Program-made: the position numbers and the translations under genes
DNA from: Octopus sinensis
Lineage: Eukaryota
Direction: 5' to 3'
Assembly (NCBI RefSeq): GCF_006345805.1
Contig: NC_043004.1
Span: forward strand, 16,554,001 to 16,618,000
Length of the DNA stretch: 64,000 bases
Notes under the pieces: model-generated
What the model was told of the DNA's origin: nothing
What the model saw: only the letters and a program-made list of their open reading frames with translations
Database searches by the model: none
Shown here: piece by piece, positions 24,621 through 45,009 of the stretch
Position numbering within the stretch: position 1 is the stretch's first letter
Layout of the letters: every line of letters starts with the position of its first letter

Positions 24621-25944
24621 ATTTGAGATTATGAGAAGGAAGTATGTCAGTGAAGAAGATATAAAGTATAAAAAGAAGGGAGGACTAAAACTAAGAATGA
24701 AGAATATAGAGGTGGAAAGGATATGAGGAAGAGTATTTTTTATGTCTAAAGAGATAGAGTGACAGCAAAATGACGAAAGATTTAAAAAAAGTCGAAAGTG
24801 GCATGCCGTTCTCTGTACGAAATCTCACTGACTACAAGGAAAAGTTATAAAAAACAAGTAGTGAGAAGATGCAGGGTAAGTGAAATCTAGCATAAAAATG
24901 AAGGGAAGGTCCCTTGCATTATTTAGACGAAAAAGACCAAACTATTAACAACCTGACTTGAGATAAGTGTCTCGTATTGATTAAAAAAGGTACCAAGAGA
25001 AGCAACATACATGATGAAGTGCTATCAACAGTGGAGATGGAAACATTATATATTTTTATTGCAAGAAAGGCAATGAAATCGATCAATGTAAAGAGAGATA
25101 AAGATTTTCAAAAACTTTTTTTATAAACAACTATTAAAAAGAAAGGGAAAATTTAAGGAATGGTAAATCAAAATGAACAGAGTATAAATCTAAAATATAT
25201 GTATGCATGAATGCTGCACGAAAAAATAAAATAGATGAAATTTCTTGTCTATTGAAGATATCCTCACCGGCATGTATACAAAAGAGAAGGTGATAGAGTA
25301 AAAAAAAAATAGCTTTTGTGCCGATAAATTAAGTTCAACGTTTCTTGTAAATTATAGATGATTCCCACTTCCTATCGGATTATGTAAATGAACGTAATAA
25401 AAGTTATGATGCAAAACTTGGAAACGATGAGGAAATTCTGACACCTAAAAATAAAATCAGAAATATATAAGTCAATTTCAATAGATCGATAGGGGATAAA
25501 AAGAAAAAAAACATTTATCATATTTGTGATGGCAGTTGGTGGTTGCGAATATCTCATTTATTTAATATGATGTATTTATTCACTTTACATATCTCAACAG
25601 ATTGTCTGTAGCACATGTTGCATAAATCCCAACACCCTGGTACATATTTCCGGTCTAAATAATATGCCAGGAGATATCGTACGATATATTTTTGGCTTTC
25701 AATGACCTACGTAAGTTTATCAAACAAAGCGTCATTTTTACGCTCGATATTGGAGGATGTGATTTGTGCCAGGTAATGGCGCTTCAGATTGAAAACCCGA
25801 TGAATATTTTTACATTGCAATTATATACAACATTATAACACAAACAATGAGAGCTTAGAGGGCATTGAGGGAGTTACGCTACAATTACATTTCTTGTCAT
25901 CGCGTGTTTGGAGACAGCGTTTAATTTCTACAATAGCTATTGGT

Positions 25945-26617
25945 CATTATTATTTTTTGATGAAAGCTCTGTTTATTTACTAGTATGGAAAGTGTCAGCT
26001 GCCAACATCCAGTAAACTAAGGTGACACTTGTTTATTGATTATGCTTCAAGAACCCTGTGAAGGACTCTGGCAGTTTCAAGCAACGATTATTTTTGCGGG
26101 TATTCTATTCTTATATTTGTATCAAACTTTTTGAGTTATATTGATAGTAGAGGGCTGTTACTTTCAAGCGCGACGATCACTCTGAGTATCACACACACTT
26201 TCTTCACTGCACACATCCTGTATATTTCCAGCTTCACATCGTCATAACTGTTCTTTCTCTTCGATCATGTTGTCATCTGGACATGCTATGTCGTTTATCA
26301 GGCATGTTCTTCTTCTTTGCTGTTCACCACAACAATGTCAGTTTCCGATTTCTAATCTGATAGCCACGCTGAATCATTGCATCCCAGAGGATTTAACAAA
26401 CCTCATTCTCAGTAACTCCCATTGGGATTTGGTCTTACCAAATCTTTGATCTTTCTAGGCCATAATTTCCACAGAGTTTTCAAAGAATCATTCTTGCCAC
26501 ATTCTCACATCGTCCTTTATATTCATATTGTGCCAATTCCGGGCATTCAGTAACAATGTGCCACACTGTTTAACCCCTGTAACCACGCATTCTGCATTTG
26601 TCGCTCTCTGTTTTTAC
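25945..26617 (-). pseudogene. R4/Dong-like non-LTR retrotransposon 3' end (zinc knuckle plus restriction-like endonuclease)
   Basis: The - strand gives DKCRM..TVWHIVTECPELAQYEYK, KLCGNYGLERSK, ILWDAMIQ, INDIACPDD and TARVLHRVLEA* (stop 26040-26042). A 3' UTR follows, ending in aataataat. Confidence 0.85.
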
Positions 26618-28612
26618 ATGAAGACAATAGAAAAAATCGAACACTTTCCAGTTGTAAAAGAGATGGCATTTGAACCAACTCTAAGTGACATTTATTTAGC
26701 TGTGAATAAGCTGAATAAAAATAAGTCTCCAGGGTCTGATGGAATCTCTGCAGAAGTTTTGAAATATGGGGGTGACAAAATGTTTGAACTCTTAATTATA
26801 TTAATTTGTCACTGTTGGACAAATAAGAAAGGGCCTCAAGACTGGACAGATGCAATTTTAGTCTCCTTGTATAAATCGGGGCCAAAGGATCTGTATAGTA
26901 ATTTTCGTGAGATTTCTCTTTTGTCTGTGGTTGGAGAGGTACCTGCCCGCATTTTGTTAGAACGTTTAAATACCTTCTTAGCTTCAAACATAGTGTATGA
27001 GTCTCAGTGTGGTTTTATTTCCTCCAGGGCCACAACTGATTGTATCTTTATTATCAGACAAATACAAGAAAAGGGCATTGAACAGAATCTTGCTCTATAA
27101 CACTGATTCTTGAGCAAAGCATTCGATACTGTTAATCGAAATGCTCTGTGGCTAATTCTAAGGAAAATAGGTTGCCCAGAAACAATTGTAAACATGATAC
27201 AGGGTTTGCATCAAGATATGAAAGCTAGAGTTCACTTTGGTGCTAGGTTCTCTGAATCTTTTGCCGTAGAAAATGGAGTAAAGCAAGGAGACCTTGAGGC
27301 ACCCACCGTTTTTGCAATATACTTTGCAGTTTTGTTGTCACGTGCTTTTCAAATCTCTGAGGAGGGTATTTACATAAAATATCGAACAGGGAATATTTTT
27401 AATCTGAAGAGACCAAAATTCAAAACAAAGGTTTTTACTTCAATCATTAGGGAACTTTTACACGCTGACGATTGCGATCTTGTATCTGCATTTTACTCGG
27501 CTTGTGATGATTTTGGCTTGACCATCAACTTGCAGAAACAGCTGTAATGCATCAACCCGAGTGTGGTGCTGTTTGTAACCCCACTAAAAGTTTTGTTACG
27601 GGTAAGTTAATTGAGGTTGTCGATTCGTTCATCTACCTTGGATGCTCTATACAAAATGATGGAAATCTTGTCACTGAAGCAAAAGCATTTCGTGGTTTGG
27701 AATCGCGTTTGGTGCCAGCGACATATAAATAAGAATACAAAGCTGGTCTTTACAAACCATTTGTCATACCATCCCTGAAAATTCTTATGAAACATGGACT
27801 TGTTATGAAAGTCATTTAAATTATTAGAACAATTCCTCCAAAAATGCTTTCATTGCATTTTAAACATTAAATGGAGTTCTTTTACTCCCGATGTAGATAT
27901 CCTTGCATCTGCAGGCATCACCTAAATTAAAGCTATGATTCTGAGAAACCAATTGAGATGGTATGACCATATTGTTCGAATGGTGGATGAACGCATGCCG
28001 AAACAGCTGTTTCATGGTGAGCTTGCAGAGGGGCATTGATATCGTCGTAAACCTAACAAAAGGTTTAAGGAAGGCATAAGGCATAAGGAAGGCATAAGTC
28101 ATTTGGAATGGATCCAGATGACATAGAATATCTTGCTTCGGATCGTGTTGGGTGGCGAACAAAATTGTGGAGTGGAGTGAAAGTATTTGAAGAGGCCATG
28201 ATAACGCATGTCTTAAAAGAACTAAGGAATAATGTTACGATCGAGAAAGTGAATGACAATGACCTTTTTGTGTGCACAGTTTTTTACTGAGCTCAGATTT
28301 CATTTGCGGACCCATCGAAAACGAACCACCACCAACTATTCTGCCTATATGTATGTGCACACCTTTAAATGTAGCTAGCGTATGCTAGAAGGCTTGCAAA
28401 TCTAACGGAGGCCTCAAAAGACATTTTAAGATCCACTAAGATTGGAACTTATCTGCAGCTCTTGGTGGTGTGGTCCAAATCGGATGTGCAATCTATGTAG
28501 ATGTCTTTTCGGAACATTGTCTGGTCTAAAAAGCCACATCAGATGCCATGATATTGCTAAGGTGTAGGTACAGGAGGCGGCCAAACTCTGCATAAGGAGT
28601 AGACAACCACCA
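26618..28612 (+). pseudogene. RTE-clade LINE, 5'-truncated: RT domain plus three C-terminal C2H2 zinc fingers
   Basis: KSPGSDGISAEVLK, REISLLSVVG, ESQCGF, SKAFDTVNR, GVKQGD, LLHADD, FIYLG. Finger remnants HLRTH, KACKSNGGLKRHFKIH and CNLCRCLFGTLSGLKSHIRCH. Stop at 28565-28567. Multiple stops and frameshifts. Confidence 0.93.
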
Positions 28613-28686
28613 TATATATATGATAGATAAATAGATAGATAGTTAGCTAGCTAGCTAGCTAGCTAGATAGATAGATAGATAGATAT

Positions 28687-28752
<66 letters not shown>

Positions 28753-28753
28753 C

Positions 28754-28807
<54 letters not shown>

Positions 28808-28841
28808 AAGATAGATATACATACAGATATAGAGATATACA

Positions 28842-28904
<63 letters not shown>

Positions 28905-28905
28905 A
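28613..28905. repeat. (GATA)n/(TA)n microsatellite
   Basis: Directly visible. Confidence 0.95.
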
Positions 28906-29629
28906 ACAATTTTATAAACTCCATTCTGTTTTATGATAGAAATTCGTGTTCTCGAAACTATATTTAAATGAAATTGACAGCAAATAAGTTACTTAAAAGA
29001 CGACAGAAAGTATATTTATAATTAGAAGTAAAAAAACAGCCTATACATCTTCTTTATGAAAGACAATAATTTAAATTGAGTTTGTTCACGCAGCGCACAA
29101 TTGTTGTTAAAAAATCAGATTATAAATGATATGTCAACATAAATATGAAATTTGTAAGCTAAGTTCTTTGATAGTATAATAGAGATATATTTTATAATGA
29201 AACGATTTTTCTATATTCAGAAATATTAAAATGAAATAAATATATCCAATCTGAGAATATTCTATATTTTTGTGATATTCTCAGTAATGCCAACTTGTTG
29301 TTTAACATAGAAACGAAAGCATATTATTTGATGTCTAGAAAATAACAAATTTTGAAGTTTCGTGAAGCATAACTCAAATCTGAAAGAATTGTTGAAAGAA
29401 TTTGGCAATTTTTAAATATAAATAATGATTTGTAGTACATAAAATGAGGCTCACCCTGATTTTGTGACATGTTGCCGTAATTGAGTAACCAAAATCCCAT
29501 TATTAATATTATTAATATTATTATTATTATTAGTAGTAGTAGTAGTAGTAGTAGTAGTAATAGTAGTAGTAGTAGTAGTAGTAGTAGTACTACTACTACT
29601 ACTTCTACTACTACTACTACTACTACTAT

Positions 29630-30004
29630 TGCCTTTGCACAGCTTCTAAAGCTGGAGATGTACTACGGTGTCAGCTGTTCATTACCAGTGAATTAAGGTA
29701 ACAGTCCTTATTTTTCTAGCACCTTTCGGAGTTTTGAGCGGCTCTTGTCACTTATGCTGAATCTCCAGGCATTGCAATAACTATGATCTTAGATTCGTTT
29801 TTTCCTTTATCTACCACAACACTATCTTCTCTACGAGCATCGATTAGAAAGTCACATTGGATTGTAAAATCCCACAGTATCTTATGTTCATTGTTCTCGG
29901 CGACTCCTCCGGTTCATGTTCGTACCATTTCGTGCTCTGTTCAGGCCGTATTTTTCACATAGCTTCGAGTGAATTACCTTAGCCACATTATCGTGCTAAC
30001 TTGT
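29630..30004 (-). pseudogene. R4/Dong-like LINE, 3' piece (endonuclease domain plus 3' UTR)
   Basis: The - strand gives HDNVAKVIHSKLCEKYGLNRA, KWYEHEP, ENNEHKILWDFTIQCDFLIDARRE, VVVDK and LRKVLEK*. The 3' end abuts a trinucleotide tract. Confidence 0.85.
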
Positions 30005-30360
30005 ATAATTTTAATTATTAACAGCAATACATTCATTGAAGGTTTGATATTATATCGGTGTCTCATCAGCTACCACTGTGTTATTTTTATGTATAGGTCA
30101 GTGATCACACGTTAAGTGAAGCTGCGAGCTGATGATAATTTATCTGAAAAGATGATTATAATAATAACTTCACTTATATATCATGTTGTCGCAAGAACAA
30201 TATATCGAACAAAAAATGCACAACATATTTTGAACTGGACGATTAATGGAATTTGGTAGAGGATAAACCTTATTAATCTATCATATATGAATACATATAT
30301 GTACACAAATGCACATACACACACATGCATATATATGTTGTGTATATTACTATGTGTGTA

Positions 30361-30767
30361 CGTGACTGTGTGGTAAGTAGCTTGCTTACGAACCACATGG
30401 TTCCGGGTTCAGTCCTACTGCATGGCACCTTGGGCAAGTGTCTTCTACTATAGCCTCGGGCCGACCAAAGTCTTGTGAGTGGATTTGGTAGACGCAAACT
30501 GAAAGAAGCCCGTCGTATATATGTATATATATATGTATGTGTGTGTATATGTTTGTGTGTCTGTGTTTGTCCCCCCAGCATCGCTTGACAACCGATGCTG
30601 GTGTGTTTACGTCCCCGTAACTTAGCGGTTCGGCAAAACAGACCAATAGAATAAGTACTAGGCTTACAAATAATAAGTCCTGGGGTCGATTTGCTCGACT
30701 AAAGGCGGTGCTCCAGCATGGCCACAGTCAAATGACTGAAACAAATAAAAGAGTAAAGAGTAAAGAG

Positions 30768-30768
<1 letters not shown>
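30361..30768 (+). mobile_element. SINE family A (mirror copy at 37574-37933, - strand)
   Basis: Full body with the B-box-like ggttcagtcc and a (aaagagt)n tail. Confidence 0.9.
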
Positions 30769-30835
<67 letters not shown>

Positions 30836-31065
30836 ATATGCGTCTATATATAAATACATCTCCTGATCAGAGATGCACATATCATCAGCCATTAAGGGAC
30901 GTGCTCAATTGTATATGATGAAGGAACTGACAAGGGAATCTGTGAGATTGAGCAGAACATTTCTTGTGGCCAATCTTTTATATCGAGACAAAACATCTAC
31001 ATGATTAAACTTCCAAACATGATAAAAGTTCAAAACTTGTAAGATTCTTCTTCTTCTTCTTCTTC

Positions 31066-31134
<69 letters not shown>

Positions 31135-31135
<1 letters not shown>

Positions 31136-31310
31136 AGCGTAGCGGTATTTCCCCAGTTGCCAAGTTCTGAGTTCAAATTCAGCAGACGTCGACTTTGCCT
31201 TTCATCCTTTCGGGCTCGATAAAGTATGTACAAGTTGAACACCGGAATCGATGTAATCGACTCATCTCCACTTCCTCCAAGCTGGCCTTGTGGCAAAACT
31301 TTGAAATGAA
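31135..31310 (+). mobile_element. SINE family B, 5'-truncated (mirror copy at ~37040-37214)
   Basis: gttctgagttcaaattc...gtcgactttgcctttcatcctttcggg. Confidence 0.82.
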
Positions 31311-32249
31311 AATAATAATAATTATTACTATGCTAGTCTATGCTAATTTAGCTAACGGGTATTTCATTTTGTAATATGGTGACAGCTCTCCTCAAATAAC
31401 AAGAACCATCCTTCGAATTCTTCCATAGTATATATTGGTACTTTCCTGCAGATCGACAGTGAAATCGAATAAACGATCATTAAAAATAACAACAGCAAAC
31501 AAAAAGAGGACGCGCACATGGAGTGTAGTATTTTGACGCTCGGTTAAAAGATAGAGATTTTGACATTTCAGCATAGCTCTTCTTCAAACAGAAAAGTCCA
31601 ATATTTATATATATATATATATATATATATGGGTATTTGCTAAGGTGTGTATATGTATGTTTGTACGTATGAGTGTACGTCCGTATTTAGGGAAAAACGT
31701 TTCTCAAAAGAGCAATCATTGTATTTATTTGTTTCTAAGTACTGCATGAGCAACTTTGCAGTGCGATGAATAAGTTTGATGTACTTAAATGATATGATCA
31801 ATAAAAATATACGAGACTGATTATCCAGCTTCTATTTTTCAATCTTTATTTTAAAATGGTTTGGATGGTGGCAAAACTAGTGTGTAAGAGAATCAACCAA
31901 AACGACAATATTTGAAACTCATTTCACACTAATCAATTTTCGACCAAATTTTCTCTTTTTTCTTTTTCTTTCTCTTTCATCTATAGCTGATGCATTTATT
32001 ACATGGAGATGTGAATTTTATGAACATGTAAAATCTAAAAACACGCCCCTGTTAAATTCATGAATTAATTTTAATATGTGTAGTTGATGAATTTTCAGGC
32101 GTATATTACGTCTATCTTATTAGCTATAAAGTATTATATTGCCACTTTGAACTGAGTATAATTTGATTTTGAATAAATTTTAGATGACAATCTCATAAAA
32201 CTTACATGAGATATTTATGAATAATATATACGTATTATATACAATATAT

Positions 32250-32310
<61 letters not shown>

Positions 32311-32387
32311 TATTCATATATATATATATATATATATACGTAGGTATATATATAATATAATATAATATAATATTATATATATATATA

Positions 32388-33447
32388 TGATTGGTCATCC
32401 CATAAATAATGCGGTTTTTTATACTTCCTTTATTTTCCTTTTTCAATGTAAAATATACTCTCCTTCATTTTCTACAATGCTCTTCCATCTGTCTGGTAGA
32501 CTTGCAAGGCCCCGTTTTGTCCCAGTACTCCTCCAGTACTGTTCTGGCTCCGTCTACAGAATCCATATTTTTTCCATCGAAATGATTTTGAAGATTGCGG
32601 AATAAATGATAATCAGTTGGGGTAATGTCCGGCAAATGTGGTAGGTGGGACATCGTTTTTTATTCAAACTGCTCCAGCCTTTGGAATGTCATCCTCGCTG
32701 TATGTGTCTGAGTATTATTCTGACGGAAGAACACCTTTCATCTTCAAACCAAAATTGGTCATTTGCCTTCTACTCGCAGTAGATCTCCTTTGTTATCGTT
32801 TGGTTTGAGTTGAAAAGTTCAAAGTGGATAACACCTTTCATATCCCACCAAACCGATACCAACACCTTACGTGGGTGAAGACCTTCTTTAGCCTGGCGGG
32901 AGAGGCAGTTCTCCGTTCCCTACACACTGTTTTGGTGCTTCGCATTTTAATAGAGAAGCTCATTTGTCGTCACCAGTCACTATTCGTCAAAAAAAGTTTC
33001 ATTCGTGAGATGTGACAGCAAAGAAGAGCACACATTCAGAACGTTTTTGAGGAACCCATTGACCCAATATCCTGACTATTCCAATGGCACGCAGATGTCA
33101 ATGAATGGTTGAATGACCACATTCAAGATTCACTACTTGTTTCTCGATGGTTACAATGGCATTGTGTGTCACCAGGTTTTGCAGGACGTCCACGCCGAGC
33201 TCTACAGATCTTTTAGAATGAGACTTGTCTTCTAGATTGTAGTTTTCGGCTCGGAAATTCTGGAACCACCATTGACACTGGCTAACGCTTATTGTCCGAT
33301 CCCCATATACTGCATTAATATTCCCCGCACCTTCTTTTGAGGTGTTTCCTCTATTGAGCTCATAAATCAAATTATCCCGAATTTGCTCCGTTGACACATC
33401 GAATATAGCTTTGAAAATATAACTGTGAAAATCGGACTGCACTCATT
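32388..33447 (-). mobile_element. Mariner (DD34D-type) decayed transposon, duplicated copy
   Basis: EQIRDNLIYELNRG, INAVYGDRTISVSQCQWWFQNFR, IVTGDDK, PDITPTDYHLFRNLQNHFDG. The terminal repeat ggtcatcccataaataatgcgg lies next to (TA)n. Confidence 0.92.
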
Positions 33448-33605
33448 GTTCCTGAGCGCTGCATATCAATGCCTCAGTGCATCCTTTCAATACACTTTTT
33501 CTTTGCCATCTCCAAGTGTTGATCTTGTGTTTTCCTTCGATTTCTCTGAGGTATTGCCCGTAATTTTTCAGTTTTTTACTCTTTCTTCATTTTGTTCCTT
33601 AAATA
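33448..33605 (-). pseudogene. R4/Dong-like LINE, upstream piece colinear with 29630-30004
   Basis: The - strand gives YGQYLREIEGKHKINTWRWQRKSVLKGCTEALICSAQEQ, the segment that precedes the zinc knuckle in this family. It is cut at the duplication boundary. Confidence 0.82.
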
Positions 33606-34222
33606 TTTAAGGGTTTATCACATTTTCGGTAGATATCATATTGTTAATTCTAACAGCGACCAGCAAATATTCACTCTTGTTTGATTGACTTTACCGTTCG
33701 TTCTATCAGGGTCGATAAATTAAGTACCAGTTGAATACTGGGGTCGATGTAATCAACTTATCCGCCCCCAAAATATTTCAGTAAAACAAGAATTGTTTAT
33801 TTTTTTCATGTCTTATAGCTAGTACCAAGGGTCGTAGATATATTATCTCCGACTGGGTCATTACACAAACCAAAGGAAATAACAACCGTAATACTCCACG
33901 CTAATGACTTAATATCGTACATTAAACGTTTCATCGAACTTGTAATTATTAAAGTGATGAGTCCGCAATACGTGTTTATGTAAGATTTTGATGCTTCGTT
34001 ATGCCGATAGTCGAAAGAGGATTTTCTTTCACATCGAGATGTAGGAAAATTCAACTTCCTTCCAATAGTTTGCGTTGATTGTACCACGTCATATTAGCAG
34101 CTCCTACGATATTGCTGTTAATAATTAAAATTATACATGTCATTAATATCGAAGTATGCCCCCCCTCTCTCTCTCTCTCACTCCTTCTCTCTCTATATAT
34201 ATATACTTATTTATTCAAAATG

Positions 34223-34430
34223 TGACCGCGTGTGTACCGTTGGCGATTTTTTTTCCTCTGTCTTCCCTTCTCTGGATCTTTCCTTCTCCTATGTTCCTGA
34301 CGAAGAGATCCGCTCGAAACGTTAAACCCTCCTTCTTTCCTTCTTTCTGAGCGTCCAATAATACTATATTTGTTCCACGTCCTCGCGTTGTGTTTTTTTT
34401 GTGCTTTCTTGTTTGGATTAACTTTATATA
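34223..34430 (+). mobile_element. Penelope-like terminal repeat fragment with hammerhead core
   Basis: CTGACGA (34297-34303)-agag atccg ctc-GAAAC (34316-34320)-GTTA, followed by a T-rich tail. Confidence 0.55.
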
Positions 34431-34857
34431 CTTATTTATTTATGCGCCCTTTTCATTCCTAGCCAGGCTCATGGGCCTAGTTTCCCGGTTTTTATGGCGT
34501 ATGTGTTCCCCCCAGCTGGACGGGAGGCCAGTCCATCGCAGCGTTACTCAAGAAACATATGTCCATATACAAGCTTTTTATCTCTCTATACTTTTTACTT
34601 ATATTTCTTATATATTTTATATATTTTCTTTTACATATTTATAGAGATATTGTTTTATAGTTTTATTGCTCATATATTTTTTTACACATAATTTTTCACA
34701 TAATTTTTACACATAATTTTTCATAATTTATGCGGGTATGTATATATTTTTTGGCGAATGTGAGGGTGAGCACGTGTGTGTTTCAAGTGAGGGTGGATGA
34801 TTATATACATATTAGCGCATGTACGTGGGCGAGCGTGCGCGCATGTCTATGTATGTC

Positions 34858-35937
34858 TATATAAGCAGGTAGTAAATTTACATGGTGCTTACTCTTAGTG
34901 CAAATTTTAATGAGTGCAGTCCGATTTTCACAGTTATATTTTCAAAGCTATATTCGATGTGTCAACGGAGCAAATTCGGGATAATTTGATTTATGAGCTC
35001 AATAGAGGAAACACCTCAAAAGAAGGTGCGGGGAATATTAATGCAGTATATGGGGATCGGACAATAAGCGTTAGCCGAAAACTACAATCTAGAAGACAAG
35101 TCTCATTCTAAAAGATCTGTAGAGCTCGGCGTGGACGTCCTGCAAAACCTGGTGACACACAATGCCATTGTAACCATCGAGAAACAAGTAGTGAATCTTG
35201 AATGTGGTCATTCAACCATTCATTGACATCTGCGTGCCATTGGAATAGTCAGGATATTGGGTCAATGGGTTCCTCAAAAACGTTCTGAATGTGTGCTCTT
35301 CTTTGCTGTCACATCTCACGAATGAAACTTTTTTTGACGAATAGTGACTGGTGACGACAAATGAGCTTCTCTATTAAAATGCGAAGCACCAAAACAGTGT
35401 GTAGGGAACGGAGAACTGCCTCTCCCGCCAGGCTAAAGAAGGTCTTCACCCACGTAAGGTGTTGGTATCGGTTTGGTGGGATATGAAAGGTGTTATCCAC
35501 TTTGAACTTTTCAACTCAAACCAAACGATAACAAAGGAGATCTACTGCGAGTAGAAGGCAAATGACCAATTTTGGTTTGAAGATGAAAGGTGTTCTTCCG
35601 TCAGAATAATACTCAGACACATACAGCGAGGATGACATTCCAAAGGCTGGAGCAGTTTGAATAAAAAACGATGTCCCACCTACCACATTTGCCGGACATT
35701 ACCCCAACTGATTATCATTTATTCCGCAATCTTCAAAATCATTTCGATGGAAAAAATATGGATTCTGTAGACGGAGCCAGAACAGTACTGGAGGAGTACT
35801 GGGACAAAACGGGGCCTTGCAAGTCTACCAGACAGATGGAAGAGCATTGTAGAAAATGAAGGAGAGTATATTTTACATTGAAAAAGGAAAATAAAGGAAG
35901 TATAAAAAACCGCATTATTTATGGGATGACCAATCAT
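34858..35937 (+). mobile_element. Mariner decayed transposon, probable donor copy
   Basis: Same sequence as 32388-33447 except for a 32-bp deletion at ~35077. The 5' leader appears to continue ~50 bp into the spacer (judged from recalled consensus). Confidence 0.9.
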
Positions 35938-36071
35938 ATATATATATATATATAATATTATATTATATTATATTATATATATTTTATATATATATATACC
36001 TACGTATATATATATATATATATATATATGAATATCTATATATATATATATTATATATATATATATGAATA

Positions 36072-36107
<36 letters not shown>

Positions 36108-36717
36108 ATATAATACGTATATATTATTCATAAATATCTCATGTAAGTTTTATGAGATTGTCATCTAAAATTTATTCAAAATCAAATTATACTCAGTTCA
36201 AAGTGGCAATATAATACTTTATAGCTAATAAGATAGACGTAATATACGCCTGAAAATTCATCAACTACACATATTAAAATTAATTCATGAATTTAACAGG
36301 GGCGTGTTTTTAGATTTTACATGTTCATAAAATTCACATCTCCATGTAATAAATGCATCAGCTATAGATGAAAGAGAAAGAAAAAGAAAAAAGAGAAAAT
36401 TTGGTCGAAAATTGATTAGTGTGAAATGAGTTTCAAATATTGTCGTTTTGGTTGATTCTCTTACACACTAGTTTTGCCACCATCCAAACCATTTTAAAAT
36501 AAAGATTGAAAAATAGAAGCTGGATAATCAGTCTCGTATATTTTTATTGATCATATCATTTAAGTACATCAAACTTATTCATCGCACTGCAAAGTTGCTC
36601 ATGCAGTACTTAGAAACAAATAAATACAATGATTGCTCTTTTGAGAAACGTTTTTCCCTAAATACGGACGTACACTCATACGTACAAACATACATATACA
36701 CACCTTAGCAAATACCC

Positions 36718-36748
<31 letters not shown>

Positions 36749-37213
36749 TTGGACTTTTCTGTTTGAAGAAGAGCTATGCTGAAATGTCAAAATCTCTATC
36801 TTTTAACCGAGCGTCAAAATACTACACTCCATGTGCGCGTCCTCTTTTTGTTTGCTGTTGTTATTTTTAATGATCGTTTATTCGATTTCACTGTCGATCT
36901 GCAGGAAAGTACCAATATATACTATGGAAGAATTCGAAGGATGGTTCTTGTTATTTGAGGAGAGCTGTCACCATATTACAAAATGAAATACCCGTTAGCT
37001 AAATTAGCATAGACTAGCATAGTAATAATTATTATTATTTTCATTTCAAAGTTTTGCCACAAGGCAGCTTGGAGGAAGTGGAGATGAGTCGATTACATCG
37101 ATTCCGGTGTTCAACTTGTACATACTTTATCGAGCCCGAAAGGATGAAAGGCAAAGTCGACGTCTGCTGAATTTGAACTCAGAACTTGGCAACTGGGGAA
37201 ATACCGCTACGCT

Positions 37214-37299
<86 letters not shown>

Positions 37300-37540
37300 A
37301 AGAAGAAGAAGAAGAAGAAGAAGAAGAAGAATCTTACAAGTTTTGAACTTTTATCATGTTTGGAAGTTTAATCATGTAGATGTTTTGTCTCGATATAAAA
37401 GATTGGCTACAAGAAATGTTCTGCTCAATCTCACAGATTCCCTTGTCAGTTCCTTCACCATATACAATTGAGCACGTCCCTTAATGGCTGATGATATGTG
37501 CATCTCTGATCAGGAGATGTATTTATATATAGACGCATAT

Positions 37541-37575
<35 letters not shown>

Positions 37576-38269
37576 CTCTTTACTCTTTTATTTGTTTCAG
37601 TCATTTGACTGTGGCCATGCTGGAGCACCGCCTTTAGTCGAGCAAATCGACCCCAGGACTTGTTATTTGTAAGCCTAGTACTTATTCTATTGGTCTGTTT
37701 TGCCGAACCGCTAAGTTACGGGGACGTAAACACAGACACACAAACATATACACACACATACATATATATATACATATATACGACGGGCTTCTTTCAGTTT
37801 GCGTCTACCAAATCCACTCACAAGGCTTTGGTCGGCCCGAGGCTATAGTAGAAGACACTTGCCCAAGGTGCCATGCAGTAGGACTGAACCCGGAACCATG
37901 TGGTTCGTAAGCAAGCTACTTACCACACAGTCACGTACACACATAGTAATATACACAACATATATATGCATGTGTGTGTATGTGCATTTGTGTACATATA
38001 TGTATTCATATATTATAGATTAATAAGGTTTATCCTCTACCAAATTCCATTAATCGTCCAGTTCAAAATATGTTGTGCATATTTTGTTCGATATATTGTT
38101 CTTGCGACAACATGATATATAAGTGAAGTTATTATTATAATCATCTTTTCAGATAAATTATCATCAGCTCGCAGCTTCACTTAACGTGTGATCACTGACC
38201 TATACATAAAAATAACACAGTGGTAGCTGATGAGACACCGATATAATATCAAACCTTCAATGAATGTAT
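34909..38269. repeat. Right arm of the inverted duplication
   Basis: Runs aatgagtgcagtccg... to ...aaccttcaatgaatgtat, mirroring 33447 back to 30027. Confidence 0.97.
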
Positions 38270-38819
38270 CAGGAAAACATATATTAAGGCTGAATTAGTG
38301 TCCTACATCCAATTATGTAAAATGTGATTTGCAACGGAATAAATTACTCTAACATTAATTATTTTATTGCAGCACTGGAAGTATAAATTTGACCGAACAC
38401 TCTGGAATTAATTCAGTTGGTTGATATACCTACGTGATTATTCTACCATTCAAAGAAATGAAATTTTGTTACGAGCTAAACATTCTTTAAACATTAAAGA
38501 AGAATCAATGCCTTATGTTGTCTTTTCTTCAATCATCACTTTCTATTTCACAGAATTTATATTGTAGCAATCGTATTAGGATTTAATATGTTTATACCTT
38601 TTGATCTTGTTGCTAGCTTATCTTAGGTAAAATCATTTATATAAAAGTCATATATAAAACTGTTTCTTTATTCACTCATCTAAGAATATTTTGTTTTGCA
38701 AGTAGTCTTAAAAGTAGTTTAGCTCTGTTTTATAAATGCATACAGATAAATGGCCCAAATATGTGTACGCATGTAAATATATGTGTATGTATGTGCGTGC
38801 GTGTGGTGTGGGTGTGTGG

Positions 38820-39135
38820 CGGGGAGGTGAGTGTGTGTAGCTGGCAGTTCGTCGGTTATGAAGACGAGGGTCCAGTTGATCCGACCAACGGTACAGCCAC
38901 GTCGTGAAATTAAGCTAAAAGTGGCAAGCACTCCACAAACACGTGGTTCTTATCGTGTTTCTCAGGGAAATTCAGAGTGACACACAGTTTGACAAGGCCG
39001 GCCCTTTGATATACAGGTACTTCTCATCTTTGCCAGATGGACAGGAGCAACGAGAAACAAATTATCTTACTCAGAGACACAACGCACCGCCGGGAATCGA
39101 AATCACGACCTTTCGATCGTGAGCCGAACACTCCT
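38820..39135 (-). mobile_element. SINE family C-related, diverged
   Basis: actcagagacacaacgcaccgccgggaatcgaa...cgatcgtgagccgaacac. Its body matches the copy at 39640-39925. Confidence 0.72.
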
Positions 39136-39639
39136 ATAGGCGATACGAAAATCCATATTGAGACGTATCACGTTACTCAAATACATTATCATAAATATAC
39201 GACGAAAAATATTACAAAAGTGAATGAATTGAAGCTGAATTCCACAGTGTAATTATGGATGTGTTTTCATGATATGTGGCTTCATTTTTCTCCAAGATTG
39301 CGTTAACTCTTAAAGTTTCCTTGAGAGTTGTGTTGTATTTGATTGAACATGGTAAGAAGAAAGAATCATCAATTAATGCTAATGATTTACCGTTCATCGC
39401 TTAGCTCACCATGAAGAAATTCAGCTGTTGTTTGTGCAATTAACTATTCATAATACTTCATTACAGTGGAAACGAGTTTCTGATTAGTTTCTGAAAGTTA
39501 TGGAAAGTTCTTTTTGGTTAATGTATGAATATACATTGCATCCCCAATTTCTTACAACGTTTATATATTTTAACTCAATATTGCCAAGTCAGTAGCTTTT
39601 TAAGTACTTTCGGAATTCCTGATCCTATTCGAAAATTTA

Positions 39640-39925
39640 ACTCAGTCTCGTAGTCTGTCGCTTACGACGACGAGGTCTCCTGTTAATCCGATCAACTGAA
39701 CAGCTAGGTCGTGAAATTAACATGCAAATGGTTGTGTACTCCAAGGACACACGCACCCTTAACGTAGTTCTCACCATGACACAGAATGTTACAAGGTTGG
39801 ACTTTTGAAATCCACTCATTTTTGCCAGCTAGGTGGACTGGATTAACGTGAAATAAAGTGTCTTACTCAAGGACACAACGCGCTGCCGGCAATCGAATGA
39901 ACGTGAGCCGAGTACCTGCCCCACT
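39640..39925 (-). mobile_element. SINE family C-related, diverged
   Basis: actcatttttgccagctaggtggactg...tcaaggacacaacgcg is the reverse complement of the core of the 20797 copy. Confidence 0.78.
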
Positions 39926-42900
39926 AATTCAGGAGCCTTAACTGAAAGTTCGATATGGAGAATTTTGTCTTGGATTATAAAGAAAATGAATTTAAAATGA
40001 AATGTTGAAACTGGTATTAAATCTGTGTTTTTGTATTCCTTCATGGCCCAAGTTGTATTTCAAGCTGAGAAATTTTGGAAGGTATTCTGTATGTAAATCA
40101 GATAGCAATTAAAGTATATTTTGAACTGAATAATTTAAAATCTTAGTTTATATACGTTTACTTCATGATTAATACACATTTTTTTAAATTCCAATTCCAA
40201 ACGTTTAAATCACACATCAGTAACATAACGGCTTCTATTCTGACGTATACGATAATTCACAGTAAATTGTTGATTATTTGTATTGTAGCCCGTCTTTTAT
40301 TCATACACGGTGTGTATTTTTAATTCATTATCAAACATACCCCTACTTTTTAAGACTGTTAGGCACTATTTAACTAAGTTTTGGTTGTTTTGCCTAGCAG
40401 TTTGAGCGACGTCACAGAGCTTCCCTCGTTGGCTAAGCTTCACAGGAAGTTGCAGCTTGTGTTACACGTATTAATCCGTGGCAATCATTGCAATACGAAA
40501 TCGAATTGATGTCATCCATCAGCGCATTCTTAAGCGTTCTACTTTTATCTACCTTACCAAATTAATGCTATTAATTCTAGATCAGGTGATTTTCGACTTT
40601 AAATTTACCCCAAAGCTTTTATTTTATATTCTACATCTGCTAACATCTTAATAACAAAGGATTGCCTAATATGAGCTAAACTCCTAAATATTACATTTCT
40701 ACCTACTTACCATTATTTGGTTGAAGGCGGCAATTTATTAATGTGATTTCGGGGTCAACGAAACTTTTAATTACTTTAAGATTTCAACCTTGAAAGAAAA
40801 CGTCGCAAATATGAATTATTAGGATAATCTTGCAAAGTTCAAATGATTTAATATCACCTCCATTGATGTGTTGTTCGGTCTTTTGATGTTATCGTAACGT
40901 TATCGTGATTTCCTTAGTATGTCGTGTGAACTTTACTCTTGTATTTATCATATGATTTATCCTTAAGACAGGATATTTTAGTTATACGTCACTATTCTGA
41001 TAGCAAGCTTTCAAATATATTCTCATCATAAAAATACATAACAGTCCTTATGAAAGGAAAGTATTTACAAACGATGAGATGTTTAAATTTTAAAAAGCTG
41101 ATGAGGAAATAAATTATTTTCCTATATTAAGAAGAGAGTAATTAAAAAATGATGTTTCTTCATTTTGGCTAATTCATCTAATTCCTTCATATTCATCATA
41201 TTTGACTGAACGGTTATTTGACTGAATGGTTATTTTTATTCGTACTATATAAAATAAAGAGTTAACAGAATGCCAACAAGATGAATAGATATGATAGATG
41301 TTCATTCTGCGGATACATTAAATGTTATCAAAAATGTATAGATAAGTGTTCATAAATATGTGTAACCATATTTTATAAATCTTGCTGATTGTCTTTATAT
41401 TCATACCTGATTCTTAGATGTTCTAAGGCTGTTATTTCTATTACTTACCTCATCTTCTGAAATAGCTAGCTGTGAACGATAGGGGCTCATGCTTCCTCAG
41501 TATAGCATCACTAATCCTCTCCGCATGCCATTGGGTCGCACAAATCTATAATCTATATATTCAAATAGTTCTTCTCTTACGTTGTACAAATAATATTCGC
41601 AGCTTGCTACCTGCAGTAATTCACGCTGAATTACCAATGTCTTCGTTAGACTTATAACGTCAGAAAATGTAACTAAGTAATTGAAAATGGCCACCGAAAC
41701 AATTGCTTGCTTATTCATTCGATTATAGAATATGTAGTGCGAAGAGGTAAATTAGCTTCAAGAAAATAATAGAGTTGTTAATTTAAAATGTACGTATCCA
41801 GACGCCAAGAAATAATATGAAATAATTTGAACATTATTCCTAGCAATGTTGCTTCGAATAAATACAAGGCATTCCCTCTCTCACACTCTTGAATATAGTA
41901 TTCACTTATAATTATATATTATGGAAATATTCACACGCAACAACCACTGATGTCATCTTCAATATAGTGTAGTATGTGCGAATCAGATTAAAGTATATAA
42001 CAGCATTTATCATTTCTCCTTAGTTGTCAAAGAACTTCTTACCCTCTATTGGTTACTAATTGTAATTGATTTCACTTGGGAATATCATATATATCGTCTT
42101 TTGGGAAGAATGAACCGGTAAAAACATTAGTTATGCCTCATATCACAGCCTACATACATATTTCTTATGAAACTTTATAGACAAATTTAAAATGTGAATT
42201 CAATAACTGTCACAAAATCTATAATTATTATTCCTGTTGTAAATCTGAAATGATTCTCGAAATTTCTTCCAATGAACTCATATGACGGTTTCTATTCTTT
42301 TCAACGATATTTTTCCTTATGTTGTTAATTCCTAGATATTAATTTGACATTTGCATTTCTTATCCTAGACACTTAAGTCGCATACTTCTGAGAGCGTGAC
42401 TGTAACAACAAAAACTTAGGGCGATTGTAGTAAAGAGTAGACTTAGGTGTTTTATTACGTTTACTGTGGTGGTTCACTGTCCAGAAACAGCTGATAGTAT
42501 AACAACTAGTAACATATCTGTTACGTAATATTTTATTTGAATCCAGCAAAGCATGATTACATCAAGTATCAAATACATTATATAATCTTGTATATTCAAC
42601 GAAATCGAGCAGATTTTGTATTTACATATAATAATTATTAGAGCGCTGAATTAGTTTTGAGGCGTTCATGCCATTCCCAAATGCATACGAAACAGGTGCC
42701 AGTTATTTTCTATAAATGCTTTCAATATTCGTATTAGGAATTATTAATATTGCTTATCGATGAGGGGACTCCATTTTGACATCAATGACTGCATTTGCGA
42801 AACTGATTGATAAAATATATTAAAAATATATTAGTTTCTAGCTGAAATGCTTTTCCCCATTGATTGAATGAAGGAATATTTTCATATTCATTTGCTTTTG

Positions 42901-45009
42901 AAATATATTAAAGACAATATCCTTTGTACTTCGGATGAAAAATAGGTCTAAAATTTGGTAGCATATATATTAAGCTACTCGTTTCATATAATAAGAACAA
43001 TTTAATTCTGTTTCGTGTGTATCAGTTTAAATTATCGATAAATCATTGATTGAATCATTATGAAACGTCAACAGCAGACATAATTCATCCTGTCATTTAT
43101 ATTTTATTTATAGCTTTAATTTAAACCAATCTTTGACCTTCATCTAATCTATGAAGAATCGCCTTTTTTTTCTTTATATTTATCGAGTGGAATAATAGAG
43201 TCTCCAGCTAATTGACTGGTTCAATATCAGCTTGTTGTTCAACCATTTAATATAAGCAGCCAATGGCTATACCAAACGAGAATGATCATTTATTTCAAGT
43301 TTTATTTTGACATTTTGCCATTGTTAATTTTTATTTCTTGAGAATATTTTCCATGCAATCATAATCTATCTTTTTATCAGACAGAGTATTTGCGAGAACA
43401 CACGAAAAATATTTGATTGAAAATTCTTAAATCGTTATCGAACGATATATAGGAATTGCGTTTTTGCATTGTAATGTCTTTCCTGCGAAAGTTATAGTTG
43501 TAACTTAATTTTATGATTTTTTTCATTTCTTCCTGATCACATTAAGTTTGAAGCCAAATTTAGGACCACATCTTTATGATCAACTAAACAGACTGCATTT
43601 CAAACCTTGTACTTCTATAGCAATCCAATATGTAATATCACTAACATAAAGATCCTTTCCTAAGAAGCTGACGTAGCGCATGATGAAGCTAAACAGATTT
43701 TATATGCAAAACACTTCGTTGTAACAAAGATGGATGCAAGAAAGTAAAGCTTATATTACATTGTAAGCAATCAAGCCACCAGGGAAAAATCAATTTTCAT
43801 TTGATGTGTGGTTAGGGTATCATGGAGATATTGCTGAAAACATTGCTGGTATATTTTTCAAGAGGATATTACTTTGTCTCAAGGCAATTCAAAACTTTTA
43901 TTCCATACACCTATATCTTTTAAATCCGTACCGCTATTCTCTTCGCAAAATAAAGGAACATTTCAGACATAAAAGTCTTAAAAACATAAGGTTGTTTTGG
44001 AAACGAAACCAAACTTTAAGTAACAACATATCACGATTAGGAAATAACTTCAGAAGGAAAACCCATTTAATCCATCAAAGAGGCTAGCAATGTAACGCAT
44101 TTATTTAAAGGTGTGATACTTCTAAAACAGTCGCTCTTAAGCCAAAATAGATTTCTAAATCTAGTAAATAAATCAGAGTCACTGATCCATATACGTTTGG
44201 AATGTTATTTCGATAGGAGCTCAGGAAACACACAATGTTATTTCGGTAGGAACTCAGGAAACACACACAAAAACACACAGAAAGAGAGGCGATTAAAAAG
44301 TTACAAGGAAGTTGTCGTGGGGATCAGAAGAGTAGCCAGTGTTACGGATAGAGCCCCTCTCTAGGTTCAAGATGACATTAGCAACAAAAGGGCACAAGCG
44401 ATATATATTCTCTATTCAAATTTGAAACAATGTACCGACGGGTTTAAATGGAAGTTTTTTTGGGGGTTTTTTTCCCAGTTATTCACAAATCCTATGTTAT
44501 ACTTCAGGTCAACTCTCACATTAAGATTTCCTTCAGCCTGATATTCAGTACCTTCTCTTCTTTCCCTTACTCTTTCTTTCTAGTACTATACACGTATTTT
44601 ATCTCTCATACTATAGCCTTTCTGAGTCTACAACATCAACGATGCAATTTAGTTCCCGTTGGCTGCAGGTTGTCACGTAAGAACAGGGGATGTAAAATTC
44701 TGATGCTTTTCATCTTACTCACCTGTCATCTAAACCTCCAAAAGAAGCTCTGTTAGAAACATTCTACTCCTCGTGGAAATTTCAATATATTCCATCTTGC
44801 AAATTTTCTGAATTAATATGGAGTCTTACAGAACCAAACCACTAGCAAGATCTTTACATTCCAATTTCTATGATGTATGCGCGTATGTTTGCGAGAGTGT
44901 ACATGAGTGTACCTATGAGTATATCAATACCTATGAGTACACATTCTTGTATATAAACATGTGTGTGTATTTGTGTACATACACATAGGTAGATAGATAT
45001 ATATATCCT

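What the first reader, a model, noticed from the sequence alone, without database searches (positions are those of the whole stretch)
30002..30029. 28-bp templated patch at the outer junction, copied inverted from the spacer (34110-34137)
tgtataattttaattattaacagcaata (30002-30029) is the exact reverse complement of tattgctgttaataattaaaattataca (34110-34137). It overlaps the long arm by a 3-bp microhomology (ata/tat) and runs into the LINE at taca. This implies three successive microhomology-guided switches: LINE to 34909, 38269 to 34110, and 34137 back to the LINE. It also argues against a simple fold-back chimera.
Basis: partly seen in the sequence, partly recalled or inferred. Interest (0 to 1): 0.72.

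Follow-up and report, generated by a model that had tools for sequence, protein, structure and literature searches.

The report
Templated patch at inverted-duplication junction
A 28-base stretch copied in reverse from 4 kb away sits at the edge of a 3.4-kb inverted duplication inserted into an old, broken LINE element; it is present in independent short-read contigs and is likely the scar of one DNA-repair event that switched templates three times, which is a known kind of rearrangement.

Summary
30002-30029 is the exact reverse complement of 34110-34137. No shuffle of 100 reached two matches, and these are the only two copies in the 2.72-Gb genome.

The patch lies between a LINE fragment (29745-29996, minus strand) and the left arm (30027-33447) of a 3.4-kb inverted duplication of 34909-38269. 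A single-copy 1,461-bp spacer separates the arms.

Other genomic copies of the LINE show that it resumes at 33446-33685. Patch plus left arm are therefore an insert into an old LINE remnant that lost about 136-143 nt. The LINE is a bystander, not the agent.

Junction overlaps:
- Patch/arm: ATA, 3 nt.
- Arm/LINE: TT, 2 nt.
- LINE/patch: 5 unassigned bases (TAACT), so the proposed TACA microhomology is not shown.

In run X22, short-read contigs span LINE-patch-arm at depth 58.7. A second contig carries the other arm's flank at depth 36.3, and the shared arm contig has depth 111.6. An assembly chimera is therefore very unlikely.

The arms differ by 6 point changes outside microsatellites and by several indels.

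Best reading: one fold-back, serial template-switch repair event of the MMBIR or synthesis-dependent end-joining kind. This class is well known, so interest is modest.

The parts
29745..29996 (-). LINE remnant, part a (C-terminal coding region; decayed, with stops and frame breaks)
   Evidence: Matches to 39 other scored genomic copies at 82-87% identity, most ending at window 29996 (alignment). Minus-strand translation reads ...EHKILWDFTIQCDFLIDARREDSVVVDKGK, with stops.
29997..30001 (.). Five unassigned bases (TAACT) between the LINE and the patch: filler or locally diverged LINE
   Evidence: LINE copies read CTCCT here, a 2 of 5 match. No 8-mer or longer spanning it recurs within 25000-43000.
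30002..30029 (+). 28-bp templated patch, exact reverse complement of 34110-34137
   Evidence: Spanned by an X22 contig of depth 58.7.
30027..33447 (+). Left arm: inverted copy of 34909-38269, the inserted copy
   Evidence: Inverted-repeat segments I1-I8. Global alignment. It is flanked on both sides by halves of one LINE.
33446..33685 (-). LINE remnant, part b. Bases 33446-33447 (TT) are shared with the arm end (2-nt overlap).
   Evidence: 6 of 11 LINE loci match here: L007 at 82%, L009 and L010 at 77%, L013 at 77%, and L006 and L014 in part. In those copies it lies about 136-143 nt beyond part a.
33448..34908 (.). Single-copy spacer (1,461 bp) between the arms, taken to be the loop of the inferred fold-back
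   Evidence: I7: 1461 nt between the arms. 33850-34165 has one match in the genome.
34110..34137 (+). Source of the patch, inside the spacer, 662 nt from the spacer's left end
34909..38269 (+). Right arm: the resident (source) copy, continuous with the spacer and with the 38270+ flank
   Evidence: The X22 contig's loose end before 30027 equals the reverse complement of 38270-38299.
30562..30601 (+). 40 bp present in the left arm only; the right arm has a deletion flanked by the direct repeat TGTGTTT
   Evidence: Repeat copy L004 runs through this stretch in the left arm (30757-30525) but stops at 37734 in the right arm.
33249..33280 (+). 32 bp present in the left arm only; the right arm has a deletion flanked by GGCT. 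It lies inside a mariner-type HTH_48 reading frame (33098-33442, minus strand).
   Evidence: Pfam HTH_48, E 2.5e-14, for the left-arm ORF that contains it.

Best explanation
The 28-bp patch is a real, exact, inverted copy of spacer sequence at the outer junction of a 3.4-kb inverted duplication inserted into an old LINE remnant, and it was likely laid down in a single repair event that switched template three times. Shown: the LINE was continuous before the event and lost about 136-143 nt. The insert consists of TAACT, the patch (copy of 34137->34110) and the arm (copy of 38269->34909). Both copied pieces come from the same strand, on the right of the break. Overlaps are ATA (3 nt) at patch/arm and TT (2 nt) at arm/LINE. 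Inferred mechanism: a break or collapsed fork inside the LINE was resected. The 3' tail of the right-hand end folded back on its own strand and paired through TT/AA at 34909, leaving the 1,461-bp spacer as a loop. It was extended for 3.36 kb to 38269 and then dissociated. It re-primed through ATA at 34110 in the still single-stranded loop and copied about 25 further bases. It was then joined to the left LINE end, with 5 filler bases or a short TGTA pairing. A fork-based version with the same three switches by a nascent strand (FoSTeS/MMBIR) fits equally well. The LINE only supplied the site. Later, the resident right arm lost 40 bp and 32 bp by microhomology-flanked deletions, and the arms gained a few point differences.
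For: Exactness and uniqueness of the 28-mer. Arms and spacer. The spacer is single copy and the arm has exactly two copies in the genome. The same LINE stands on both sides of the insert: 6 of 11 other copies match both 29745-29996 and 33446-33685, with about 136-143 nt between them. The LINE is old: 82-87% identity to 39 other scored copies and broken frames. The arms differ at only 6 points outside microsatellites over about 3.4 kb. Overlaps of ATA and TT are read directly. In X22, the junction contig has depth 58.7, the flank contig 36.3 and the shared arm contig 111.6, and the loose end equals the reverse complement of 38270-38299. Literature: human fold-back inverted duplications had a non-duplicated spacer at all 21 sequenced junctions (766-70,466 bp), 2-8 bp of inverted microhomology in 13 of 21, and insertions mostly templated within 1 kb (PMC3907307, passages). 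In yeast, foldback-templated inverted insertions of about 5-34 bp form at breaks, with the other end captured by end joining (PMC11724301, abstract).
Against: The overlaps are short. From the window's base composition, an overlap of 2 nt or more is expected by chance at about 7.5% and of 3 nt or more at about 2% per fixed register, so they are suggestive only. The third junction has 5 unassigned bases and no proven microhomology. Nothing in the sequence shows that the patch and the arm arrived in the same event. The inner junction (33447/33448) was not seen bridged by any listed contig, since it lies in repeat-rich sequence and both read-laying runs are used. 3.36 kb of synthesis is far longer than the 5-34 bp foldback insertions in the yeast study. 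The left arm carries alleles seen in X1 and the right arm alleles seen in X23, so the history is more than a simple copy in cis followed by point mutation. X22 may be the sample the assembly came from, though it differs from the window at 30040 and 30135.
Confidence: 0.75

Rival explanations
1. Two separate events. An inverted duplication formed first, and a later small break at its outer junction was repaired with a 28-bp templated insertion copied from the spacer (or the reverse order).
For: The sequence cannot order the junctions. The 5 unassigned bases at 29997-30001 show extra processing at that junction. The arms carry later deletions, so the locus has changed more than once.
Against: The patch sits exactly at the junction and overlaps the arm end by ATA. 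Its source lies inside the spacer, on the same strand and side as the arm's source, as expected for one fold-back intermediate. A second, independent break at the same base is the less economical reading.
Confidence: 0.12
2. Assembly or library artefact: a fold-back chimeric long read, or a mis-join of two haplotypes, produced a false inverted duplication.
For: Inverted near-identical arms around a short spacer are the typical look of fold-back chimeras. The arm differences at 30215 and 30282 coincide with alleles seen in other runs (X1 against X23), as a haplotype mis-join might give.
Against: In X22, k-mer contigs built from reads independently of the assembly hold the LINE-patch-arm junction at depth 58.7 and the 38270-flank/arm junction at 36.3. 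They merge into an arm contig of depth 111.6. The insert replaces about 140 nt of a LINE with short junction overlaps. X22 differs from the window at 30040 and 30135, so the contigs are not a copy of the assembly.
Confidence: 0.03
3. LINE-driven rearrangement: the reverse transcriptase or endonuclease of the LINE at the junction jumped templates during its own insertion (twin-priming-like) and copied the patch and arm.
For: The junction lies at an apparent 5' truncation of a minus-strand LINE. LINE-linked rearrangements are described for L1 (PMC11702581, search listing only).
Against: The same LINE continues on the far side of the insert (33446-33685), so it predates the event and was cut by it. 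The LINE is 13-24% diverged from other copies and has broken frames, while the arms are nearly identical. The fragment is also cut off at its other end, at 29745.
Confidence: 0.03
4. The two 28-mers are the terminal inverted repeats of a DNA transposon spanning 30002-34137.
For: An exact 28-bp inverted pair 4.1 kb apart. A mariner-type HTH_48 frame lies between them.
Against: Only these two copies exist in 2.72 Gb. There is no target-site duplication: the flanks read ...GCTAACT and TGTCATT.... The LINE halves place the right edge of the insert at 33447, not 34137. The mariner piece belongs to both arms.
Confidence: 0.01

Closest known systems
Fold-back inverted duplications with a non-duplicated spacer (human germline; PMC3907307, passages read)
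   Same: Inverted and direct copies are separated by a single-copy spacer (1,461 bp here; 766-70,466 bp there). There is a short inverted overlap at the spacer/inverted-copy junction (2 nt here; 2-8 bp there). Templated insertions come from near the breakpoint.
   Different: Those cases are large, terminal, and pass through a dicentric chromosome with a terminal deletion. This one is 3.4 kb and interstitial, and the far end was rejoined to the other side of the same break with only about 140 nt lost.
Foldback-templated inverted insertions at double-strand breaks in yeast (PMC11724301, abstract read)
   Same: An inverted copy of nearby sequence is inserted at a break through microhomology-primed foldback synthesis, and the second end is captured by end joining. 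The 28-bp patch falls in the 5-34 bp size class. That study also notes complex inserts of two pieces from one locus.
   Different: The main copied piece here is 3.36 kb, about 100 times longer. The templates lie 0.66 kb and 1.46 kb from the break, not directly beside it.
MMBIR / FoSTeS serial template switching (PMC2621351, search listing and start of abstract only)
   Same: A complex rearrangement that mixes duplication, inversion and deletion, with several junctions in cis bearing short microhomology.
   Different: The scale here is kilobases within one 8.5-kb neighbourhood. A replication-fork origin cannot be told apart from a two-ended break with these data.
Polymerase-theta / synthesis-dependent MMEJ templated insertions (PMC2943611 and PMC5068794, search listings only)
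   Same: A short insert templated from flanking DNA in inverted orientation (snap-back), with a few bases of overlap at its end and possibly a few untemplated bases.
   Different: Dependence on the enzyme cannot be tested. The accompanying 3.36-kb copy exceeds what I recall as typical for this pathway.

Membership tests
Fold-back inverted duplication | Inverted and direct copies separated by a non-duplicated spacer | tested here: met
   Arms 30027-33447 and 34909-38269 with 1,461 nt between them. The spacer has 1 genomic match and the arm has 2.
Fold-back inverted duplication | Short inverted microhomology where the spacer meets the inverted copy | tested here: met
   TT at 33446-33447 is shared by the arm end and by the LINE as read in other copies (...CTTGTTCC...). 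At only 2 nt this is weak by itself.
Fold-back inverted duplication | Terminal deletion / dicentric intermediate (human germline form) | tested here: not met
   The chromosome continues on both sides and only about 136-143 nt of LINE are missing. This case works like a fold-back but is not the terminal class.
Serial template switching (MMBIR/FoSTeS) | Two or more novel junctions in cis with microhomology or short insertions | tested here: met
   Three junctions: 29996-30002 (5 unassigned nt), 30027-30029 (ATA) and 33446-33447 (TT).
Serial template switching (MMBIR/FoSTeS) | Origin at a collapsed replication fork | not testable with these tools
   Sequence alone cannot separate a fork origin from a break origin.
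Templated insertion by synthesis-dependent / Pol-theta end joining | The insert is an exact copy of sequence near the break, with primer-template overlap at its edge | tested here: met
   28 of 28 bases identical to a source 662 nt from the right break end. There is a 3-nt overlap at one edge; the other edge is unresolved.
Templated insertion by synthesis-dependent / Pol-theta end joining | Dependence on polymerase theta | not testable with these tools
   Needs genetics.
DNA transposon with terminal inverted repeats | Target-site duplication and further copies in the genome | tested here: not met
   No duplication in the flanks. The 28-mer occurs only twice in the genome.
LINE-mediated rearrangement (template jump or twin priming at insertion) | The LINE insertion is of the same age as the rearrangement and ends at the junction | tested here: not met
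   The LINE continues at 33446-33685 beyond the insert. It is 13-24% diverged from other copies, while the arms are nearly identical.
   Genomic copies read CRMCG...H....C and RRPDIVVVDK. The reading of these motifs is from recall. Pfam gave no family for this 146-aa piece.
   No tree was built and no reference sequences were at hand.

The most novel reading that the evidence does not exclude
The inverted copy was templated from the homologous chromosome and not from the same chromatid. The left arm carries the alleles (30215 A, 30282 C) and the 40-bp and 32-bp stretches of one population haplotype (as in run X1). The adjacent resident arm carries those of another (30215 T, 30282 A, as in run X23). 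This would be a natural germline record of inter-homologue template switching during break repair, still segregating in the species.
Probability: 0.1. Interest if true: 0.5.

Novelty: new member of a known kind. Interest (0 to 1): 0.3.

Why it matters
This is a clean, read-supported natural example of a multi-switch repair scar in the germline of a large, repeat-rich animal genome. All three junctions, both templates and the pre-event target (an old LINE) can be read to the base. Such cases calibrate how far and how often a repair polymerase jumps: here 0.66 kb and 1.46 kb from the break, with tracts of 28 bp and 3.36 kb. They also warn annotators that an inverted duplication beside a LINE need not be LINE-made or an assembly error. 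It adds no new mechanism.

Tried and rejected
- **Source for the 5 bases TAACT.** No word of 8 or more bases spanning 29990-30005 recurs within 25000-43000. The few 7-mers that recur look like chance.
- **Alternative haplotig with the empty site.** I searched the own genome for one. The spacer probe hit only the window's locus, and the arm probe hit only the two arms. The ancestral LINE sequence at the break could therefore not be read.
- **Second read-laying run (29930-30300).** It gave no cover at 29969-30300 for X1, X4 and X3. It also dropped arm contigs seen, such as the X22 contig 30041-30388. This hole says nothing about absence.
- **Absence of the patch junction in X1 and X23.** In one search, X1 (1,112-nt contig, 750 letters before 30027) and X23 (1,128 nt, 766 letters before) run unbroken across the arm end. 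In X22 the contigs split there. This hints that X1 and X23 lack the patch junction. However, contigs show presence, not absence, and the 750 and 766 letters were not shown to be the 38270 flank.
- **Inner junction 33447/33448.** No listed contig bridges it. It remains untested.
- **Pfam scan of the LINE C-terminal piece.** No family was found.
- **Earlier findings near this place.** None were on record.
- **Depth ratios.** The spacer contig has about half the depth of the arm contigs in X1, X22 and X23 alike. I judged this too noisy to use as copy number.

Full report
**1. The observation**

The sequence at 30002-30029 is TGTATAATTTTAATTATTAACAGCAATA. It is the exact reverse complement of 34110-34137. 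With up to 3 mismatches allowed, these are the only two matches in the window. None of 100 dinucleotide-preserving shuffles gave two matches. An exact search of the window's own genome (2.72 Gb; the window is G000:C8:16554001-16618000) found these two places only. The match stops sharply at 30002, as base 30001 does not continue it.

**2. Surroundings**

- A long inverted repeat has a left arm at 30027-33447 and a right arm at 34909-38269, with 1,461 nt between them (segments I1-I8).
- Patch and left arm overlap by ATA at 30027-30029.
- A unique probe from the spacer (33850-34165) has one match in the genome.
- A unique probe from the arm (31700-32200) has exactly two matches, which are the two arms.
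- A global alignment of the arms shows 6 point differences outside microsatellites: 30215, 30282, 30471, 30674, 30918 and 30968. There are some further differences inside microsatellites, plus length changes in the (TA)n and (TTC)n tracts.
- Two non-microsatellite stretches are present only in the left arm: 40 bp at 30562-30601 and 32 bp at 33249-33280.
- Both stretches look ancestral. The 40 bp are present in another copy of that repeat (L004). The 32 bp lie inside a mariner-type HTH_48 reading frame (Pfam E 2.5e-14).
- In the right arm the two gaps are flanked by the direct repeats TGTGTTT and GGCT. They are therefore later microhomology-flanked deletions in the resident copy.

**3. The LINE**

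Left of the patch, 29745-29996 matches a dispersed family on the minus strand. One search found 688 first-look candidates and scored 40. Apart from the window itself, the best identity was 87%.

The minus-strand translation of the window copy is broken by stops and frame breaks. Better copies read CRMCG...H....C ... KILWDF...ARRPDIVVVDK. From recall, this is the knuckle plus restriction-like endonuclease region of R2/R4/Dong-type LINEs. Pfam has no family for it, and I did not test the clade.

Aligning 11 other copies shows two things.
- The family continues past 29996 with CTCCTTTTGTAGTGCTTTTGGG..., not with the patch.
- In 6 of the 11 copies, the sequence that follows about 136-143 nt later matches window 33446-33685. 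This is the stretch that begins exactly where the left arm ends.

The LINE remnant was therefore continuous before the event. TAACT, the patch and the left arm (29997-33447) are an insert that replaced about 140 nt of it. The LINE is much older than the duplication and is a bystander.

**4. Junctions**

- Outer junction: LINE to 29996, then five bases (TAACT) that match neither the LINE copies (CTCCT, 2 of 5) nor the spacer, then the patch. TGTA occurs 7 nt further on in 7 of the 11 LINE copies.
- Patch/arm junction: a 3-nt overlap, ATA.
- Arm/LINE junction: a 2-nt overlap, TT (33446-33447). Other copies read ...CTTGTTCCTGGGCGCTG where the window reads ...CATTGTTCCTGAGCGCTG.
- From the window's base composition, chance overlaps of 2 or more and 3 or more bases are about 7.5% and 2%. 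These overlaps are consistent with microhomology priming but do not prove it.

**5. Reads**

All 24 runs found are Logan contigs.

In X22:
- A 211-nt contig of depth 58.7 spans 29860-30070 (LINE, patch, arm) with one difference, 30040 A>T.
- A 797-nt contig of depth 36.3 ends on 30027-30070. Its loose end before 30027 is ACTAATTCAGCCTTAATATATGTTTTCCTG, which is exactly the reverse complement of 38270-38299.
- A contig of depth 111.6 covers 30041-30388.

Both arm ends therefore exist in that DNA. They split just where a single difference (30040) separates them, and the shared part has about the summed depth. This excludes a chimeric long read as the origin.

X22 differs from the window at 30040 and 30135, so its contigs are not a copy of the assembly. 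It may still be the same animal or its other haplotype.

In X1 and X23, contigs run unbroken from 750 and 766 unlaid letters into the arm. This hints that they lack the patch junction, but contigs cannot show absence. X1 carries the left-arm alleles at 30215 and 30282, and X23 carries the right-arm alleles.

The inner junction was not seen bridged.

**6. Mechanism**

The points read directly from the sequence are these:
- One target was cut, with a small loss.
- Two copied tracts come from the same strand on the same side of the cut.
- The tracts are in inverted orientation.
- The shorter tract comes from inside the spacer.
- Short overlaps stand at two junctions.

The inferred sequence of steps is as follows.
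1. A break or collapsed fork arose in the LINE and was resected.
2. The right-hand 3' tail snapped back on its own strand at TT/AA (34909), leaving the spacer as a loop.
3. It was extended for 3.36 kb and then released.
4. It re-primed by ATA at 34110 in the single-stranded loop and copied about 25 further bases.
5. It was joined to the left end with 5 extra bases.

The same path can be drawn as three switches of a nascent strand at a fork (FoSTeS/MMBIR). I cannot separate the two versions.

This matches published patterns:
- Human fold-back inverted duplications had a single-copy spacer at all 21 sequenced junctions, 2-8 bp of inverted microhomology in 13 of 21, and insertions mostly from within 1 kb (PMC3907307, passages).
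- In yeast, foldback-templated inverted insertions of about 5-34 bp form at breaks, with the other end captured by end joining (PMC11724301, abstract).
- MMBIR, SD-MMEJ and polymerase-theta scars are cited from search listings only.

**7. Rivals**

- Two separate events cannot be excluded (0.12).
- An assembly artefact is contradicted by X22 (0.03).
- A LINE-driven event is contradicted by the LINE continuing beyond the insert and by its age (0.03).
- A transposon with 28-bp terminal repeats is contradicted by the copy number, the lack of a target duplication and the insert's true right edge (0.01).

**8. Verdict**

The feature is a new instance of a known kind of rearrangement scar. It is recent relative to the LINE and possibly still polymorphic. 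Interest is modest at 0.3.

Noticed in passing
window 30215, 30282 (and 38081, 38014): The two arms carry different alleles that also occur in other runs. The X1 contig has the left-arm alleles (A, C) and the X23 contig has the right-arm alleles (T, A). This suggests either later recombination of the resident arm with unduplicated chromosomes or a template from the homologue.
   Followed up: partly
window 37734/37735 and 35076/35077: The resident right arm has two deletions relative to the inserted copy, of 40 bp and 32 bp. They are flanked by the direct repeats TGTGTTT and GGCT. They are secondary microhomology-flanked deletions within a large near-palindrome.
   Followed up: yes
window 26459-27732 (+): A second, unrelated LINE remnant lies on the plus strand, with reverse-transcriptase frames broken over several ORFs. 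Its match to RVT_1 (27.5 bits) is below Pfam's cut-off of 29.6.
   Followed up: partly
window 30305-30787, 31110-31270, 33686-33846, 34169-34300: Very high-copy short repeats (summed contig word depth in the millions in all four runs) lie inside the arms and the spacer. They break the short-read contigs and limit read checks.
   Followed up: no
window 32400-33447 and 34909-35950: A mariner-type transposase remnant (HTH_48 domain) lies at the inner ends of both arms. The fold-back point 34909 falls inside it.
   Followed up: partly
window 30040 and 30135: The X22 contigs read T at 30040 on the patch-bearing arm only, and G at 30135 on the shared arm contig, where the window has A at both places. 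X22 is therefore not letter-identical to the assembly.
   Followed up: no
window 29745: The LINE remnant is also cut off at its 3' side. Other copies continue for more than 100 nt where the window has unrelated sequence, followed by a (GTA)n/(CTA)n tract at about 29530-29630.
   Followed up: no
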